A model generated the notes under the pieces. The model ran no database searches. It worked only from the letters and a program-made list of their open reading frames with translations, and was not told the DNA's origin. 64,000 nucleotides of DNA from Dehalococcoidia bacterium. Lineage in GTDB: Bacteria > Chloroflexota > Dehalococcoidia > Plut-88900. The position numbers and the translations under genes are program-made. The stretch covers positions 2,010,061-2,074,060 of the forward strand of contig OY764147.1 of NCBI GenBank assembly GCA_963668115.1, written 5' to 3'. Below are positions 21,942-29,517 of this stretch, piece after piece. Each line of letters opens with the position of its first letter. Position 1 is the first letter of the stretch.

Positions 21942-23006
21942 ATGAGACGTCTTCTGCTCACTGCCCCGGCCCTCGGCCTGCTGCTGTTCATAGCCGCCCT
22001 CGCCTGTATCCCGGACCCCCAGCCTACCCCTCCCCCCACCAGCACCCCTGCCCCGAACCTCACCCCCACCTCCATCCCGGGCCTCCTGTTCTTCGCCGAC
22101 GTGGCGGAGCACGCACTCCCCGCCGTCGTCTCCATCCTCACCGGCCCCGTCGACCTCAGGCAGTTCCTTGACCCCGCCTCCCAGTCCGACTACAGCGGCT
22201 CCGGCGCGATTATCAGCGAGGACGGCCTGATTCTCACCAATAGCCACGTGGTGGAGGGCGCCAACTTCATCTTGGTCACCCTCACCGATGATCGTCATTT
22301 CAGCGCCGAAATAGTCGGCGCTGACCCGACCTCCGACCTAGCCGTCCTGAAAATAGACGCCGATGACCTGCCCACCCTCGGCTTCGGCGACAGCGAGACC
22401 CTCCGCATCGGCGAACCCGTCGTCGCCATCGGCAACGCCTTGGCCCTGGAGGGCGGGCCCACGGTCACCGCGGGCGTCGTGAGTGCCGTGGGCAGGTCCG
22501 TATCCGTCAGCGACGGCGAACTCAGCGACCTCGTCCAGACCGACGCCGCCATAAATCCGGGCAACAGCGGCGGCCCTCTCCTCAACATGAACAGCGAAAT
22601 AGTCGGCATCAACACGGCCATCGACAGGACCCAGCCGGGCATCGGGTTTGCCATGGGCACCACTACCATCAACCGCGTCGTAGAGCAGCTAATCGCCACC
22701 GGCGAGGTGGTGCGGGGCTACCTGGGCGTGACCCTGGCCACCGTCAACCCCGTCATAGCCATGCGGTTTGATCTGGACGTCGAGGAAGGAGTCCTGATTA
22801 CCAACGTCCTCAACGGCACCCCCGCCTCCGACGCCGGCATCGAGCCCCGGGACGTTGCCATCAACTTCAACGGCGAGGTCCTGACCTCCAGCAACGAGTT
22901 CATCCACCTGATCCGCACCAGCCCCATCGGCCAAACCCTCCCCATCACCATAGTCCGCGAAGGCGAAGAACTCACCTTCTCCGTAGTCCTCGCCGTCCGC
23001 CAGTAG
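21942..23006 (+). CDS. HtrA/DegP-like trypsin-type serine protease with PDZ domain, lipobox signal
   Basis: Start chosen at MRRLLLTAPALGLLLFIAALAC (ATG 21942). TNSHVV, DLAVLK and GNSGGPL form the catalytic triad context. C-terminal PDZ-like segment. Confidence 0.9.
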   Translation: MRRLLLTAPALGLLLFIAALACIPDPQPTPPPTSTPAPNLTPTSIPGLLFFADVAEHALPAVVSILTGPVDLRQFLDPASQSDYSGSGAIISEDGLILTNSHVVEGANFILVTLTDDRHFSAEIVGADPTSDLAVLKIDADDLPTLGFGDSETLRIGEPVVAIGNALALEGGPTVTAGVVSAVGRSVSVSDGELSDLVQTDAAINPGNSGGPLLNMNSEIVGINTAIDRTQPGIGFAMGTTTINRVVEQLIATGEVVRGYLGVTLATVNPVIAMRFDLDVEEGVLITNVLNGTPASDAGIEPRDVAINFNGEVLTSSNEFIHLIRTSPIGQTLPITIVREGEELTFSVVLAVRQ

Positions 23007-24213: not shown

Positions 24214-27200
24214 CTACCCCACCCTGACTACCCCCAACACCACCTCCCGACCATCCAGCTTGTGCGTCTCCACGAACGCCTCCGCCGGAGGTGCAATCGT
24301 TAGCACCTCCCGTGATAGCGTCTCCTGCTTCACGTACGACTCGTGGGCGGCCAGCGCCTCCGCCGGAGGTCCTTCCCCGACCATGTAACTCACTATCTGG
24401 TCCACCACCTCGAAGCCCGCCGACCTCCGCATCGTCTGCAGCCGGTGCACCAGCTCCCGGGCCATACCCTCCTTGGCCAGATCCTCCGATATGGCCGTCG
24501 GTATCGCTACTACGTAGTCGCCCTCCGCCGCCACCGACACCCCTTCCTTCTCCACCGCCTCCAGGTTCACCTCTTCCGGCTCCAGCGTGAAACCCGACAC
24601 CTTAATGCTTCCGCCAGACTGCACAACCCTTGCCACCTCGCCGGGGTCCATCGCCGACAGCCCCTTCACGATCTTCGGCGTATCCTTCCCGTACTTCGGC
24701 CCGAGCAACGGCGTGTTCGCCGACACCTTGTAGTCGTACACCTCCGCCGCCGACTCAGCGAACTCCAGCGCCTTCACGTTCAGCTCTTCGCTCACCTGGT
24801 CGAAGCTTCGCTGCAAAGCCTCTCTCTCTGCATCCCCCCGCACCACCACCTTCACCGATGCCAACGGCTGCCGCACCTTGATCGCCGCCTTGCTCCGCGC
24901 CGCCCGACCCAGGCTGCTTATCTTCATCGCCAGCCGGGCTTCATCGTTCAGGGCCGGGTCTATCAGCGACTCATCCCCTTCCGGAAACTCGGCTAGGTGG
25001 ACGCTCTCCGGCGCAGAGGCGTCGGCACCCGACACTAGGTTTCGGTACAGCTCTTCCGCGAGGAACGGCGTGAAGGGAGCAATCAGCTTGGACAGGGTGA
25101 CCAGGCAGCCGTAAAGCGTGTCGTACGCCGACTGCTTCTCTTCATCGTTCTCGCTCTTCCAGAACCGGCGCCTGCTCCGGCGCACGTACCAGTTCGACAG
25201 CACGTCCACGAACGCCTCGATCCTGCGCCCCGCGTTCGTCGGGTCGTAGTTGTCCAGCGACTCCGTAACGTCTTTCACCAGCCGGTGCAACTCCGACTCT
25301 ATCCACCGGTCCAGCCCCGACGCCTTCGCTCCGTTACCCGTGCCCTTCGGCTGGTAACCGTCGATGTTGGCGTAGGTCACGAAGAACGAGTAGGTGTTCC
25401 AAAGCGTCAGCATGAACTTGCGGATGGCTTCCTGCACCAGTTCTCCCGAGAACCGGCGAGGGTTGCCCGGCGGCGACGCCGTGTACAGGTACCAGCGCAG
25501 GGCGTCGGCACCCTGCGCATCGAGAACCGACCACGGCTGCACCACGTTCCCCTTGGACTTGCTCATCTTCTCCCCGGCCTCGTCCAGGATGTGGCCCAGG
25601 CAGATTACGTTCCGGTAGCACGGCTCCCCAAACACCAGCGACGACACCGCGTGCAGGCTGTAGAACCACCCCCGAGTCTGGTCGACCGCCTCGCAGATGT
25701 AGTCCGCCGGGAACCGACCGTCCTCCTTCATACCATCGTTCTCGAACGGGTAATGCCACTGCGCAATCGGCATCGCCCCCGAGTCGAACCAGACATCCAT
25801 CACTTCCAGGATCCGGCTCATCGTCCCGCCGCAATCCCCGCACTCGTAGAAGATTTCGTCCACGTATGGCCGGTGAAGGTCCAGGGGCTCGGCGATGCCG
25901 CGCACCTTCTTCTTCTCTCGCAGCTCCTCTATCGACCCTATGCACTCGTACTTCTCACAGGAGTCGCACTGCCAGAAGGGAATCGGGGTCCCCCAGTACC
26001 GCTCCCGGGAGATGGCCCAGTCCTGCACGTTCCGCAGCCACTCCCCGAACCGGCCCCACTTGATGTGGCCCGGGTACCAGTTCACCTTGTCATTGTTGTC
26101 CAGCAGCGTGTCCTTGATCGCCGTCGTGTTGATGTACCAGGAGCTCTTGGCGTAGTACACCAGCGGCGAGCTGCACCGCCAGCAGAACGGATAGGTGTGG
26201 ACGATCTGCGTATGCCTGAACAGCAGCTCCCGGGCCGTCAGGTCGTCGATGATGTCCGCATCGGCGTCCTTCACGAATTTCCCTGCGAAGGGAAAGTTCC
26301 CGATCATCCCTCCCTGCAAGTCAACATGCTGCACGAAGTACAGCTCCGCCGACGCCCCAATCTTGAAGTCGTCCTCTCCGAAGGCCGGTGCTATGTGCAC
26401 GACCCCCGTCCCCTCATCCAGACTCACAAAGTCCCCCCCGACCACGTGGAACGTCGCCGTCTGGCCGGGCTGGTAGCTGGCCCCCCTCTGCACCCGACCC
26501 TCCGCAAACTTCCCGATTCCCGGCACCTTGTACGCCACCGGGTTGTACAGCGCCTTGTATCCCAACCCCACCAGGTCGCTTCCCTTCACCGTCCCAACGG
26601 TCTCGTATCCCGACGGCAGCAGCTTCCCGACCAACGCCTCGGCCATGATCAGCCGCTCCGGGATGGCCCCGTCCGCCTTGTCCTCTACTAGTGCGTAGTC
26701 CGCTTCAGGGTCTATGGCGAGGGCCGTGTTGCCGGGCAGTGTCCAGGGAGTCGTCGTCCAGGCAAGGATGAATGTAGGCAGGTGGGACCCGCCTATCAGC
26801 TTGCGGGCCCCGTTGCTGTAATCGTCATCCTCAAGGTCCACACGGAACTTCACGAATATGGCCACGTCCTTCGTCTGGTCGTTGTACCCTTGGGCCACCT
26901 CGTGGTCGCTGAGCGAGGTCACACACCTCGGGCAGTGCCAGATCGACTTGTATGCCTCGTGGATCAGGCCCCGGTCCCACAGCTGCTTCAGAATCCACCA
27001 CATCGACTCGATGTAAGAGTTCTCGAAGGTGACGTACGGGTCGTTCATGTCGATCCAGAACCCGATGCGGTCGGTCAGGTCTTCCCATTCCTTCACGTAG
27101 CGCATCACGTTCTGCTTGCAGGCGGCGTTGAACTCCCGGATCCCGTGCTCCTCGATCTGCGCCTTCTGCGTAATCCCGAGACTCTTCTCCACCTCAAGCT

Positions 27201-27489
27201 CAACCGGCAATCCGTGGGTGTCCCAGCCCGCCTTTCGGGGCGCGCAATACCCCTTCATCGTCTTGTAGCGGGGCATGATGTCCTTGAACACCCGGGAGAG
27301 GACGTGATGGATGCCGGGGCCCGCGTTGGCCGTCGGCGGCCCTTCGTACATAACGTACAAAGGTCGGTCCCGACGCTCCTCCACCGACCGCGTCGCAATA
27401 TCCCGCTCCTTCCAGAACTCCAACACCCGCGTCTCCAGCTCCGGAAAACTCACCTTGCTCGATACCGGTTCAAACATCTTCTCGCTCAT
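24214..27489 (-). CDS. ileS: Isoleucine--tRNA ligase
   Basis: 1091 aa. HIGH-type motif (PGIHHVLSRV), KMSKSKGN, CP1 editing domain, zinc-binding CxxC pairs. Confidence 0.97.
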   Translation of the reverse strand: MSEKMFEPVSSKVSFPELETRVLEFWKERDIATRSVEERRDRPLYVMYEGPPTANAGPGIHHVLSRVFKDIMPRYKTMKGYCAPRKAGWDTHGLPVELEVEKSLGITQKAQIEEHGIREFNAACKQNVMRYVKEWEDLTDRIGFWIDMNDPYVTFENSYIESMWWILKQLWDRGLIHEAYKSIWHCPRCVTSLSDHEVAQGYNDQTKDVAIFVKFRVDLEDDDYSNGARKLIGGSHLPTFILAWTTTPWTLPGNTALAIDPEADYALVEDKADGAIPERLIMAEALVGKLLPSGYETVGTVKGSDLVGLGYKALYNPVAYKVPGIGKFAEGRVQRGASYQPGQTATFHVVGGDFVSLDEGTGVVHIAPAFGEDDFKIGASAELYFVQHVDLQGGMIGNFPFAGKFVKDADADIIDDLTARELLFRHTQIVHTYPFCWRCSSPLVYYAKSSWYINTTAIKDTLLDNNDKVNWYPGHIKWGRFGEWLRNVQDWAISRERYWGTPIPFWQCDSCEKYECIGSIEELREKKKVRGIAEPLDLHRPYVDEIFYECGDCGGTMSRILEVMDVWFDSGAMPIAQWHYPFENDGMKEDGRFPADYICEAVDQTRGWFYSLHAVSSLVFGEPCYRNVICLGHILDEAGEKMSKSKGNVVQPWSVLDAQGADALRWYLYTASPPGNPRRFSGELVQEAIRKFMLTLWNTYSFFVTYANIDGYQPKGTGNGAKASGLDRWIESELHRLVKDVTESLDNYDPTNAGRRIEAFVDVLSNWYVRRSRRRFWKSENDEEKQSAYDTLYGCLVTLSKLIAPFTPFLAEELYRNLVSGADASAPESVHLAEFPEGDESLIDPALNDEARLAMKISSLGRAARSKAAIKVRQPLASVKVVVRGDAEREALQRSFDQVSEELNVKALEFAESAAEVYDYKVSANTPLLGPKYGKDTPKIVKGLSAMDPGEVARVVQSGGSIKVSGFTLEPEEVNLEAVEKEGVSVAAEGDYVVAIPTAISEDLAKEGMARELVHRLQTMRRSAGFEVVDQIVSYMVGEGPPAEALAAHESYVKQETLSREVLTIAPPAEAFVETHKLDGREVVLGVVRVG

Positions 27490-27792: not shown

Positions 27793-28045
27793 AAAAAACC
27801 CGCCCCCGACCAGGGACGGGTCACGACCCGCGGTACCACCCATTTTGCCCGCCTCACGCGGACCTTCTCGTTAGAGCACGGGCCTATTTTACAAGACCGA
27901 TGCCCTCGCCCCTGTAACGGGGAGCGACTCCGGCCACGCCTACTTCGCCATTATCGGGTTTCGGGTGGCGGCTCGGGAGGGATTTTCGGGGCCGGGCTCC
28001 GGGCCTGCTCTCACCGTGCCAGGCTCGCTGATCGCAGCTTCCTGC
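27793..28045 (-). promoter_or_regulatory. T-box riboswitch leader of ileS with intrinsic terminator
   Basis: Minus strand reads ...GCGAUCAGCGAG...GGUGAGAGC...CGAAGUAGG...AAAAUGGGUGGUACCGCGGGUCGUGACCCGUCCCUGGUCGGGGGCGGGUUUUUU. It has the canonical T-box sequence GGGUGGUACCGCG (27842-27829), an AGAGA-type bulge, an AGUA S-turn, and a terminator hairpin followed by a U6 run (27798-27793). Confidence 0.8.
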
Positions 28046-28092
28046 CCCTACTCGTCTCCGTCTTCGCCTGTATCGTGTTTGCTCTGAGCTTC

Positions 28093-28371
28093 CTAGGACC
28101 CGAACAGCGAGGGAGTCGCCTCCTCGGGCAGTCGAGCCTTTATCGCCTCTTTAATCTCTTCGTTGCTCGGGAACCGGCCCGTCTCCAGCTTGGAGTGGAC
28201 CGTCTCACCGTCGATCCTCACCTCGAACTTGCCCTGCGCGGCGGTGATGATCTTGAAGGTCGCGATGTCGTAGTCGTATTCCCTCATCACCTCTTCCGTC
28301 AGACTGACGGCTTCGGGGAGGTAGTTTCAAAGAGTGCAGTATTCGACCTCGATGTTCAGCTTCTTGGCCAT
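28093..28371 (-). CDS. SelW/Rdx-family selenoprotein (in-frame UGA = Sec at codon 15)
   Basis: SD GAGGUAAGG, ATG at 28371, then MAKKLNIEVEYCTL-UGA(28329..28327)-NYLPEAVSLTEEVMREYDYDIATFKIITAAQGKFEVRIDGETVHSKLETGRFPSNEEIKEAIKARL... The CxxU lies exactly at the Rdx-family redox motif. The track shows only the 65-aa part downstream of the UGA. Confidence 0.8.
28296..28310 (-). promoter_or_regulatory. SECIS-like hairpin downstream of the UGA
   Basis: RNA CCGUCA-GUC-UGACGG starts 16 nt 3' of the UGA. A lower stem CCUC/GAGG flanks it, separated by an internal loop. Confidence 0.5.
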
Positions 28372-28373
28372 CC

Positions 28374-28700
28374 TTACCTCACCCCCTTTCTGTTCATGCC
28401 GGTAACGGCCAGGGCCGTCCTCCAAAAGCGAATGACATTATATCTCACCCGACGCCCCACGTCATTCGACAGGCGATTCCTCACTGCATCACTGACTTCC
28501 CCGGGGCTCGGCACCCGACCCGAAAACACCACCTCTCCATCAATCCTAACCTCAAAACTGCCCTCTTCCCCTGACACAAGCTCGAAGCTGCCGACATCAT
28601 AGTCATGCTCTCTCATCACCTCCTCCATCAACCGCACCGCCTCCCCCCACCCCCCCGACTCCTTGTTATAAGCAACTTGGATTGAAAGTTTATCCGGCAT
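28374..28700 (-). CDS. SelW/Rdx-like paralog lacking the Cys/Sec redox motif
   Basis: IQVAYNKESGGWGEAVRLMEEVMREHDYDVGSFELVSGEEGSFEVRIDGEVVFSGRVPSPGEVSDAVRNRL aligns with the selenoprotein, but CTLU is replaced by NKES. Its stop TAA lies 2 nt before the selenoprotein ATG. Confidence 0.6.
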   Translation of the reverse strand: MPDKLSIQVAYNKESGGWGEAVRLMEEVMREHDYDVGSFELVSGEEGSFEVRIDGEVVFSGRVPSPGEVSDAVRNRLSNDVGRRVRYNVIRFWRTALAVTGMNRKGVR

Positions 28701-28715: not shown

Positions 28716-29150
28716 TCACACAGATATGACGTATAGGAAAGACTTGTCCTTCTCTGCTAACAACCCCTCCATCCCCGCATCCAGCGTCGCCAGTTGGCCC
28801 CCTCGCTGCATTGCCGTAGCCAGCAGAACGGCATCCGTAACTTGACGATACCCGTGGATACGGGCGCCGATTGAATCCGGCAAATCGACTATCGACCAGT
28901 CCATCGGCCAAAAAGAATGTTCTCCCAGCCGCGTCAAGCTTTTCAACGCATCAATGGCATCGAGAGGAGTTACCGTATCCCGTACCACCGTGGGATTGCA
29001 GGAGAGCCGTACAAAACCCGACTCCGTCAGGGCACAAGTCGCCCATCCTTCCCACTGGTGTTCTTTGAACCACGCGTTGGCGGCTGCATGATGCGCGTGA
29101 TTTGACCAGACCAAGGCTAACAGGACGTTCACGTCCAGAAGCGCGGTCAC
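28716..29150 (-). CDS. vapC: VapC-type PIN-domain toxin
   Basis: LLDVNVLLAL (first acidic residue), ...QVTDAVLLATA. 144 aa. 4-nt overlap with the upstream antitoxin. Confidence 0.85.
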   Translation of the reverse strand: MTALLDVNVLLALVWSNHAHHAAANAWFKEHQWEGWATCALTESGFVRLSCNPTVVRDTVTPLDAIDALKSLTRLGEHSFWPMDWSIVDLPDSIGARIHGYRQVTDAVLLATAMQRGGQLATLDAGMEGLLAEKDKSFLYVISV

Positions 29151-29377
29151 GGAAATTCGTCCAGCGCCTTGTACACGTCCTCACTGGTGAATGGTTCGGC
29201 ATTGGGATTTATGGGGAAAAACGGTATGTCATCACGTTTCGCGCTCGTGTTTACCCCATTCCTAAACCCCCGGCGCGCCAGCTCCGACACCGCGCTCCCT
29301 AAGCTACCCCCGTTACGTGCTGCTAACGCCCGCGCTACCGACAGGACATCGTCATCTATGGTTAGTGTTGTCCGCAT
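29147..29377 (-). CDS. vapB: VapB-type antitoxin
   Basis: MRTTLTIDDDVLSVARALAARNGGSLGSAVSELARRGF is a typical VapB N-terminus. Start chosen at ATG 29377 rather than the track start 29413. Confidence 0.75.
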   Translation of the reverse strand: MRTTLTIDDDVLSVARALAARNGGSLGSAVSELARRGFRNGVNTSAKRDDIPFFPINPNAEPFTSEDVYKALDEFP

Positions 29378-29517
29378 GACAACATCATAGCATCGTAACA
29401 TCAACATTGCCAATCAGTGGCTTAGTACCTCCTGGCAGGGAAGCTCATACACTGCATTTGCCCCGTTAATTATCGGGTGAGACAATCAAGAAGTGGGGTC
29501 CATCCGAATAGCAGGGA

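What the first reader, a model, noticed from the sequence alone, without database searches (positions are those of the whole stretch)
28093..28376. Selenoprotein hidden by an in-frame UGA: SelW/Rdx-like CTLU motif with SECIS-like hairpin
The ORF track reports only a 65-aa ORF (28093..28290). Reading upstream in the same frame gives SD GAGGUAAGG, ATG 28371, then MAKKLNIEVEYCTL-UGA-NYLPEAVSLTEEV. The UGA (28329-28327) falls exactly on the second redox position of the CxxC/CxxU motif that follows the first beta-strand in Rdx-family (SelW/SelT/SelH-like) proteins. The rest (FEVRIDGETVHSKLETGRFPSNEEIKEAI) is a typical family sequence. Sixteen nt downstream of the UGA lies a hairpin CCGUCA-GUC-UGACGG (28310-28296), with a lower CCUC/GAGG stem, at the distance expected for a bacterial SECIS. 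Standard gene callers would truncate or miss this gene.
Basis: partly seen in the sequence, partly recalled or inferred. Interest (0 to 1): 0.68.

Follow-up and report, generated by a model that had tools for sequence, protein, structure and literature searches.

The report
Unannotated SelW-like selenoprotein gene
This is a real but ordinary member of a long-known bacterial selenoprotein family (SelW-like), whose UGA codon is read as selenocysteine; gene callers cut it to a 64-65 residue fragment.

Summary
On the minus strand, ATG 28371 opens a 92-codon frame ending at TAG 28095-28093, with one in-frame TGA at 28329-28327.

With U read as C, the protein matches Pfam Rdx over the whole profile (73.3 bits). 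It also matches NCBIfam CXXU_selWTH (68.6 bits, cut-off 34.2). The 65-aa ORF covers only the C-terminal two thirds.

The TGA aligns with the second Cys of CxxC in solved bacterial Rdx proteins. It is TGA in 102 of 102 informative orthologous loci from at least five phyla.

A 6-bp hairpin with a G-U-N loop starts 16 nt after the UGA and meets all four published bacterial SECIS constraints. It is 94% paired across 69 distinct sequences, with compensatory changes. It shows no synonymous variation where the flanking codons vary freely.

The host is a Dehalococcoidia bacterium, a class already reported to include very selenoprotein-rich genomes.

Not shown: selA, selB, selD and tRNA-Sec in this genome. 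None lies in the 64 kb, and the rest of the genome could not be read.

This is a new member of a known kind, so interest is low. By-products: a decaying Sec-less tandem paralog, the gene's own promoter, and an ileS T-box leader directly downstream.

The parts
28437..28465 (-). Sigma-70-type promoter-like site of the selenoprotein gene: -35 ATGACG (28465-28460), 17-nt spacer, -10 TATAAT (28442-28437)
   Evidence: The scan gives 10 of 12 matches, with 0.4 sites expected in shuffles. The TATAAT is kept in all 14 Dehalococcoidia-group loci aligned, including those without the upstream paralog. Function is inferred, not shown.
28377..28386 (-). Shine-Dalgarno-like GGGGGUGAGG, 5 nt before the ATG
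   Evidence: Read directly from the sequence. A purine-rich stretch is kept in the orthologs.
28093..28371 (-). Full coding sequence of the SelW-like (Rdx family) selenoprotein: 92 codons including Sec15, stop TAG 28095-28093
   Evidence: Translation. Pfam PF10262 73.3 bits over profile 1-73/74. TIGR02174 68.6 bits against a cut-off of 34.2. PDB 2fa8 E 5e-11. In the 13 codons before the UGA, mismatches by codon position are 24/5/42.
28327..28338 (-). CxxU redox motif: TGC ACT CTT TGA (Cys12-Thr-Leu-Sec15)
   Evidence: Aligns with CTQC of Atu0228 (2fa8) and SAV_2001 (3dex). In the model of ortholog P0002 the motif lies between strand 1 and helix 1.
28327..28329 (-). Sec-encoding UGA
   Evidence: TGA in 102 of 102 informative orthologous loci from genomes and metagenomes. 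The only other row, L101, is a cut contig where the motif search mis-anchored.
28296..28310 (-). SECIS core: 6-bp upper stem CCGUCA/UGACGG with apical loop GUC, stem starting 16 nt and loop 22 nt after the UGA
   Evidence: MFE -7.8 kcal/mol alone and -13.4 kcal/mol with the lower stem. 94% of cells paired in 69 distinct sequences, with three pairs showing compensatory changes; slid controls give 22-46%. Loop G26 is invariant and U27 nearly so. No synonymous change in these codons.
28288..28323 (-). Extended SECIS including the lower stem UACCUC/GAGGUG, specific to the Dehalococcoidia group
   Evidence: Predicted in the MFE and centroid structures. Only 53% paired across phyla.
28374..28700 (-). 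Tandem Rdx paralog without Cys or Sec (108 aa). Its last ~95 nt overlap the promoter and 5' UTR of the selenoprotein gene. It is context, not part of the recoding device.
   Evidence: Pfam Rdx 25.7 bits. The Sec-equivalent codon is TCG; relatives have TCA, TTA or TTG. Absent in L002, L005 and L008-L010.

Best explanation
The gene at 28371..28093 (minus strand) encodes a 92-residue SelW-like protein of the Rdx family, a small protein with a thioredoxin-like fold. Its active site is Cys12-x-x-Sec15.

Proposed mechanism:
1. Transcription starts from the gene's own promoter (-10 at 28442-28437). Inferred.
2. Translation starts at ATG 28371. Inferred from conservation.
3. When the ribosome reaches UGA 28329-28327, the hairpin 16 nt downstream is bound by the elongation factor SelB carrying Sec-tRNA(Sec). 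The hairpin has a 6-bp stem and a G-U-C loop. Selenocysteine is inserted instead of terminating. This step follows the established bacterial mechanism.
4. The product is presumed to cycle between a selenolate/thiol pair and a selenenylsulfide, acting as a thiol-dependent oxidoreductase. Its physiological substrate is unknown, as it is for the whole family.

Shown here: the reading frame, family membership, conservation of the UGA and of the coding segment before it, and an RNA-level constraint on the hairpin.

Inferred: decoding as Sec, the promoter, and the redox chemistry.
For: - Family: the full-length frame matches Rdx PF10262 at 73.3 bits over profile 1-73/74. The 65-aa ORF scores 42.5 bits over 27-73 only. 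TIGR02174 CXXU_selWTH scores 68.6 against a cut-off of 34.2.
- Motif: the UGA aligns to the second Cys of CTQC in 2fa8 and 3dex.
- Conservation of the codon: TGA in 21/21 genome loci from Dehalococcoidia, Acidobacteria, Eisenbacteria, Planctomycetota and Alphaproteobacteria, and 102/102 overall. The search patterns did not include the Sec position.
- Segment before the UGA: it evolves as coding sequence. Mismatches by codon position are 24/5/42, and the ATG and purine-rich stretch are kept.
- SECIS model: it meets the four constraints of the consensus model quoted in PMC13188914. The loop is 3 nt, the upper stem is 6 bp, G is followed by U at loop positions 1-2, the spacing is 22 nt, and the MFE is -13.4 kcal/mol.
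- Helix conservation: 94% paired, 43 double-sided cells against 9.3 in shuffles, slid controls 22-46%.
- RNA-level constraint: synonymous variation in 0/6 hairpin codons, against 12/13 and 28/29 flanking codons.
- Genetic code: TGA is an ordinary stop here, ending 6 of 29 long ORFs.
- Fold: the model of ortholog P0002 reads strand-helix-strand-strand-strand-helix. Its best PDB fold matches are SelW-related proteins 2fa8, 2obk, 2ojl, 2oka, 3dex and 2p0g, then mouse SelW.
- Lineage: Dehalococcoidia MAGs are listed among the ten most selenoprotein-rich bacteria, with 46 and 49 genes (PMC13326102).
Against: - No selA, selB, selD or tRNA-Sec lies in the 64-kb window or in the 20-kb loci of the related Dehalococcoidia chromosomes. 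The rest of the genome could not be read, and the window's own contig is not on record.
- No second selenoprotein gene was found in the window.
- Fold energy is unremarkable in a longer context (z = -0.78).
- Part of the hairpin's conservation could come from the conserved peptide A-V-S-L-T. The absence of synonymous change and the compensatory pairs argue against that being the whole cause.
- There is no experimental evidence of selenium incorporation.
Confidence: 0.93

Rival explanations
1. The UGA is a true stop. The real gene is the 64/65-aa ORF starting at GTG 28290 or ATG 28287, and the upstream 14 codons are untranslated leader or a separate mini-ORF.
For: Gene callers made this call for about 20 orthologs. 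A GAGG lies just before the internal GUG/AUG.
Against: - The short product lacks strand 1, the redox motif and the start of helix 1, covering Rdx profile 27-73 only.
- The 13 codons before the UGA show a coding substitution pattern with a conserved ATG and purine-rich stretch.
- The UGA and a SECIS-type hairpin are conserved across phyla.
- The GAGG is 0-2 nt from the internal starts, which is too close for a usual ribosome-binding site.
Confidence: 0.03
2. The UGA is read as a standard amino acid: Trp or Gly through an alternative genetic code, or Cys or Trp by near-cognate read-through.
For: One public ortholog (P0002) is recorded with W at this position.
Against: - The DNA of P0002 has TGA, and its locus does not translate to the record under table 11, so the W comes from the caller's choice of code.
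- TGA ends 6 of 29 long ORFs in the window, and the long genes are intact under table 11.
- A plain reassignment would not need a conserved hairpin at a fixed distance.
Confidence: 0.02
3. The gene is a pseudogene inactivated by a nonsense mutation.
For: An in-frame stop sits 14 codons into a conserved domain. The neighbouring paralog is visibly decaying.
Against: - The same codon is TGA in 102/102 loci.
- Both flanks are under purifying selection in about 14 Dehalococcoidia-group sequences.
- A nonsense allele would not be shared across phyla.
Confidence: 0.01

Closest known systems
Bacterial SelW-like selenoproteins (Pfam Rdx PF10262, formerly pfam05169; NCBIfam TIGR02174 CXXU_selWTH)
   Same: - Size, CxxU motif after the first strand, profile match above the cut-offs, and a SECIS hairpin just after the UGA.
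[quoted passage not shown]
- It was also the most abundant in the GOS samples: 427 genes, with 56 Cys homologs (PMC2398784).
- It has few or no Cys homologs in Sec-using organisms (PMC1794560). This fits 102/102 TGA here.
   Different: Nothing essential differs. This member comes from a Dehalococcoidia genome and belongs to a subfamily marked by the motif SKLETGRFP. It scores below the cut-off of the Campylobacter-type equivalog NF041051 (79.5 against 88).
Cys-form bacterial Rdx proteins with solved structures: Atu0228 (2fa8), SAV_2001 (3dex), 2obk, 2oka, 2ojl, 2p0g
   Same: Sequence match E 5e-11 to 1e-5 over residues 4-84. They are the best fold matches for the ortholog model, with target TM-scores of 0.65-0.70. 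The redox motif is in the same place.
   Different: They carry CxxC, not CxxU, and have no SECIS. They lack the SKLETGRFP motif. Identity is 23-30%.
Mammalian selenoprotein W (mouse SelW, 2npb)
   Same: Same fold and same CxxU position.
   Different: The relation is distant (E 0.009). Eukaryotic SelW uses a 3'-UTR SECIS and SBP2/eEFSec rather than a hairpin in the coding region bound by SelB.
Bacterial SECIS consensus model (bSECISearch model, as summarised in PMC13188914)
   Same: Loop of 3 nt (allowed 3-9), upper stem of 6 bp (allowed 4-16), G then U at the first loop positions, 22 nt between the UGA and the loop (allowed 16-37), MFE -13.4 kcal/mol (limit -7.5).
   Different: None of the constraints is violated. 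SelB binding was not tested.

Membership tests
Rdx / SelW-like family (PF10262, TIGR02174) | Profile match above the curated cut-off over the full domain | tested here: met
   PF10262 73.3 bits (cut-off 22.6), profile 1-73/74. TIGR02174 68.6 bits (cut-off 34.2), profile 1-73/74.
Rdx / SelW-like family (PF10262, TIGR02174) | CxxC or CxxU motif directly after the first beta-strand | tested here: met
   C12-T-L-U15 aligns with CTQC of 2fa8 and 3dex. In the model of ortholog P0002 the motif lies between strand 24-32 and helix 38-51.
Rdx / SelW-like family (PF10262, TIGR02174) | Thioredoxin-like fold: strand-helix-strand-strand-strand-helix | tested here: met
Core pLDDT is 76-83 and the element order is E-H-E-E-E-H. 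The top 21 PDB fold matches are all SelW-related proteins.
NF041051 SelTWH_Campy (equivalog) | Score at or above the curated cut-off of 88 bits | tested here: not met
   79.5 bits. It is not filed under this equivalog.
Bacterial selenoprotein gene (Sec-UGA plus bSECIS) | In-frame UGA aligned with a redox Cys of homologs and conserved among orthologs | tested here: met
   Aligned to Cys in the PDB homologs. TGA in 102/102 loci.
Bacterial selenoprotein gene (Sec-UGA plus bSECIS) | Hairpin meeting the bSECIS model: loop 3-9 nt, upper stem 4-16 bp, G in loop position 1 or 2, 16-37 nt from the UGA, MFE of -7.5 kcal/mol or lower | tested here: met
   Loop 3 nt (GUC), stem 6 bp, G then U at the first loop positions, spacing 22 nt, MFE -13.4 kcal/mol (criteria from PMC13188914).
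Bacterial selenoprotein gene (Sec-UGA plus bSECIS) | selA, selB, selD and tRNA-Sec present in the same genome | not testable with these tools
   None in the window or in the related 20-kb loci. Indirect support only: Dehalococcoidia MAGs carry 46-49 selenoprotein genes in BSepDB.
Bacterial selenoprotein gene (Sec-UGA plus bSECIS) | Selenium found in the protein | not testable with these tools
   Needs 75Se labelling or mass spectrometry.

The most novel reading that the evidence does not exclude
The most novel reading not excluded concerns function, not identity. This SKLETGRFP subfamily of SelW-like proteins may be tied to selenium handling itself rather than to general redox buffering.

In one soil clade the gene sits 40-170 nt upstream of a Sec-containing selD, and the subfamily is Sec-only in 102/102 loci.

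A second, weaker novel reading: the Sec-less tandem paralog, whose 3' end reads through the selenoprotein gene's promoter and leader, may be a retained redox-dead partner or regulator rather than a decaying duplicate.
Probability: 0.1. Interest if true: 0.5.

Novelty: new member of a known kind. Interest (0 to 1): 0.2.

Why it matters
The value is practical. The gene is mis-called as a 64-66 aa fragment in about 20 public orthologs, and once as a Trp-containing protein under the wrong genetic code. Annotation of these Dehalococcoidia genomes therefore under-counts selenoproteins.

It adds a clean, well-conserved SECIS alignment for one SelW-like subfamily: 69 distinct sequences, invariant loop G, three covarying pairs. 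It also indicates that this lineage depends on selenium.

It does not change what is known about Sec decoding or about the family, whose cellular function remains unknown.

Tried and rejected
- **Sec machinery.** I fetched E. coli SelA, SelB and SelD from NC_000913.3 and ran tblastn against the window and all 103 other loci held (612 kb). There was no hit in the window. In Dehalococcoidia loci the only hit was an AIR-synthase-family protein in L004. It scores below the cut-offs for thiL, hypE and selD alike and has no Cys or Sec before its GK motif, so I did not count it as SelD.
- **tRNA-Sec.** ARAGORN found none in the window or in the 21 genome loci.
- **The window's own contig.** Looking up its IleRS found nothing on record, so I could not walk along the genome.
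- **A large protein search with SelD.** I did not run it. The top rows would be relatives of the query, not of this lineage, so the cost was not justified.
- **A second selenoprotein in the window.** Two screens were run. One looked for TGA conserved across related loci with coding-type substitutions on both sides. The other scored codon usage on both flanks. Only 28329 stands. The hit at 22297 (-) has the GC pattern of an antisense frame of the plus-strand gene, and 59385 (-) lies antisense to a plus-strand ORF.
- **Rfam.** No family reached its gathering score anywhere in the window.
It is not conserved outside the Dehalococcoidia group.
- **Terminator-like hairpin 27822-27797.** It belongs to the ileS T-box leader, not to this gene.

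Full report
**1. Observation**

The minus strand of 27900-28560 was read. The ORF list reports only 28093..28290 (65 aa, GTG start). Translating 28371..28093 gives a 92-codon frame with a single internal stop:

MAKKLNIEVEYCTL*NYLPEAVSLTEEVMREYDYDIATFKIITAAQGKFEVRIDGETVHSKLETGRFPSNEEIKEAIKARLPEEATPSLFGS*

The stop is TGA at 28329-28327. A purine-rich GGGGGTGAGG ends 5 nt before ATG 28371.

The hairpin CCGUCA-GUC-UGACGG is at 28310-28296, starting 16 nt after the UGA. It has a lower stem UACCUC/GAGGUG.

**2. Family**

With U written as C, the protein matches Pfam Rdx (PF10262) at 73.3 bits over profile positions 1-73 of 74. The 65-aa ORF reaches only 42.5 bits over positions 27-73. NCBIfam TIGR02174 (CXXU_selWTH) gives 68.6 bits against a cut-off of 34.2. 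The Campylobacter-type equivalog NF041051 gives 79.5 bits, below its cut-off of 88.

Against solved structures, the best sequence matches are bacterial SelW-related proteins:

| Entry | Protein | E-value |
|---|---|---|
| 2fa8 | Atu0228 | 5e-11 |
| 3dex | SAV_2001 | 1.3e-9 |
| 2obk, 2p0g, 2oka, 2ojl | SelW-related proteins | 5e-7 to 1e-5 |
| 2npb | mouse SelW | 0.009 |

In the printed alignments the UGA position falls on the second Cys of their CTQC motif.

I therefore modelled ortholog P0002, which is 77% identical (alignment).
- The core has pLDDT 76-83, and the element order is strand-helix-strand-strand-strand-helix. The motif lies between the first strand and the first helix.
- The 21 best fold matches in the PDB are all SelW-related proteins. 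MIEN1, mouse SelW and thioredoxins follow.

**3. Is the UGA decoded?**

*Orthologous loci.* A scan of one genome per species returned 21 loci. The search patterns were MREYDYDI and [FH]SKLETGRF, which do not touch the Sec position.
- Ten loci are from Dehalococcoidia or Chloroflexota MAGs (72-99% protein identity).
- Eleven are from Acidobacteria, Eisenbacteria, Planctomycetota and Alphaproteobacteria.
- All 21 have TGA at the CxxU position.

A metagenome scan added 80 loci. Two more loci came from the P0002 look-up. In total, 102 of 102 informative loci have TGA. The one exception, L101, is a cut contig where my motif search mis-anchored. No Cys form of this subfamily turned up.

*Public protein calls.* The public protein set holds the orthologs almost only as 64-66 aa fragments beginning MREYDYD. 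One record (P0002) shows W at the position. Its DNA has TGA, and the locus does not translate to the record under table 11, so that W comes from a caller using another code.

*Genetic code.* TGA is an ordinary stop in this genome: 6 of 29 long ORFs with coding-type composition end in TGA.

*Segment before the UGA.* In 14 sequences of the Dehalococcoidia group, the 13 codons between the ATG and the UGA differ mostly at third positions. Mismatches by codon position are 24/5/42. Amino-acid changes are conservative, such as I/V/L and L/M, and the ATG is kept. This segment is therefore translated in this frame.

**4. SECIS**

The consensus model for bacterial SECIS elements is summarised in PMC13188914. 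The element here meets all four constraints:

| Constraint | Model | Here |
|---|---|---|
| Apical loop | 3-9 nt | 3 nt (GUC) |
| Upper stem | 4-16 bp | 6 bp |
| UGA to loop | 16-37 nt | 22 nt |
| MFE | -7.5 kcal/mol or lower | -13.4 kcal/mol |

*Covariation.* I made a gap-free alignment of 69 distinct sequences from the UGA to +45 and counted the 6-bp helix (columns 20-25 with 29-34).
- 94% of cells are paired, against 82.8% in shuffles and 22-46% when the partner is slid.
- 43 cells carry changes on both sides, against 9.3 in shuffles.
- Three pairs covary: C-G/G-C, G-C/C-G/A-U and U-A/C-G/U-G.
- Loop G26 is invariant and U27 is nearly so.

*Lower stem.* It is paired in only 53% of cells across phyla, so it is a local feature of the Dehalococcoidia group.

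*Synonymous sites.* Within that group, synonymous variation is seen in 12 of 13 codons before the UGA and in 28 of 29 codons from +12 to +40. It is seen in 0 of 6 codons forming the hairpin, and in neither of the two codons right after the UGA. This is a constraint on the RNA, not on the protein.

Fold energy alone is not convincing in a longer context (z = -0.78). The case rests on the comparative evidence.

**5. Organism and machinery**

The window (62% G+C) is 80-94% identical in DNA to closed or nearly closed Dehalococcoidia MAG chromosomes, such as OZ220734.1, CBDBLV010000005.1 and OZ241876.1. Gene order is the same. Its own contig is not on record.

I found no tRNA-Sec. I also found no SelA, SelB or SelD in the window or in the related 20-kb loci.

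Two pieces of indirect support exist.
- BSepDB lists two Dehalococcoidia MAGs, with 49 and 46 selenoprotein genes, among the ten most selenoprotein-rich bacteria (PMC13326102). One of them carries the same kind of isolate label as the relatives found here.
- A UGA with a coding segment before it and a constrained hairpin after it would not persist in about ten species of this group unless it were decoded.

**6. Surroundings**

*Promoter.* A promoter-like site (ATGACG, 17 nt, TATAAT; 28465-28437, 10 of 12 matches) lies about 65 nt before the ATG. Its TATAAT is kept in all 14 aligned loci.

*Upstream paralog.* The gene immediately upstream (28700..28374) is a tandem Rdx paralog without Cys or Sec.
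- Its Sec-equivalent codon is TCG here and TCA, TTA or TTG in relatives. Each is one base from TGA.
- The Cys-equivalent codon is AAC, GAC or GGC, and still TGC in L007.
- Non-synonymous changes equal or outnumber synonymous ones in most species pairs.
- It is missing in L002, L005 and L008-L010.
- Its conserved tail (RYNV...MNRKGVR) is the translation of the selenoprotein gene's promoter and leader. That DNA is conserved even where the paralog is gone.

I read it as a decaying duplicate.

*T-box leader.* Twenty nucleotides after the selenoprotein stop codon, a T-box leader begins (28073..27809). It scores 85.7 bits in Rfam RF00230, just under the gathering score of 93, with E 6e-19. It ends in the terminator-like hairpin 27822-27797 and precedes ileS.

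*Other neighbours.* Upstream lie a VapC toxin gene with a small partner, a leucine-rich-repeat protein and a ResA/TlpA-like oxidoreductase.

**7. What is known**

- SelW-like proteins with CxxU were described in bacteria two decades ago.
- They were also the most abundant in the GOS samples, with 427 genes (PMC2398784).
- They have few or no Cys homologs in Sec-using organisms (PMC1794560).
- Their function is still stated as unclear.

**8. Verdict**

It is an unannotated member of a well-known family, in a lineage already known to be rich in selenoproteins. Confidence that it is a Sec-decoded SelW-like gene is 0.93. It is a new member of a known kind, with interest 0.2. The open item is the direct demonstration of the Sec machinery in this genome.

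Noticed in passing
window 27809-28073 (-), with terminator-like hairpin 27797-27822: A T-box leader (Rfam RF00230, 85.7 bits, just under the gathering score of 93, E 6e-19). It starts 20 nt after the selenoprotein stop and precedes ileS (27489..24214). It is conserved in L001-L010. No terminator separates it from the selenoprotein gene, so read-through transcription into the ileS leader is possible.
   Followed up: partly
window 28374-28700 (-): A tandem Rdx paralog without Cys or Sec. Its Sec-equivalent codon is TCG (TCA, TTA or TTG in relatives), one base from TGA. Constraint is relaxed, and it is deleted in L002, L005 and L008-L010. Its conserved C-terminal tail is the translation of the next gene's promoter and 5' UTR.
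   Followed up: partly
L027, L030, L064, L077, L095 (40-170 nt downstream of the SelW-like gene); L016 17021-17974: In one soil-metagenome clade the SelW-like gene is directly followed by selD. That selD itself has an in-frame TGA at the catalytic position (CAG-U-AGK against E. coli GAG-C-GCK). This hints at a functional link between this subfamily and selenophosphate synthesis.
   Followed up: partly
window 28372-28436 (-): The roughly 60-nt leader between the -10 box and the ATG is conserved at the DNA level. It contains a short GC-rich hairpin (ACGGCC..GGCCGT here, GGGC..GCCC in L004-L006). No Rfam match was found.
   Followed up: no
window 28716-29150 (-) and 29147-29413 (-): A VapC-family PIN toxin (TIGR00028, 120.8 bits) with an 88-aa upstream partner that overlaps it by 4 nt. 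This is a VapBC-type toxin-antitoxin pair. The partner has no NCBIfam match.
   Followed up: partly
window 29518-30660 (+) and 30713-31309 (+): A leucine-rich-repeat protein with a signal-like N-terminus, followed by a ResA/TlpA-like thiol-disulfide oxidoreductase (WCNFC motif, Cys form).
   Followed up: no
L004 15103-16119 (-): An AIR-synthase-family protein that scores below the cut-offs for thiL, hypE and selD alike (110, 107 and 92 bits). It has no Cys or Sec before its GK motif. Its identity is unclear, and it was not counted as SelD.
   Followed up: partly
public protein records P0002 and P0027 (orthologs): P0002 records the Sec codon as Trp because the caller used another genetic code. 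P0027 reads past the UGA region in a shifted frame (its residues 9-42), probably because of an assembly indel.
   Followed up: partly
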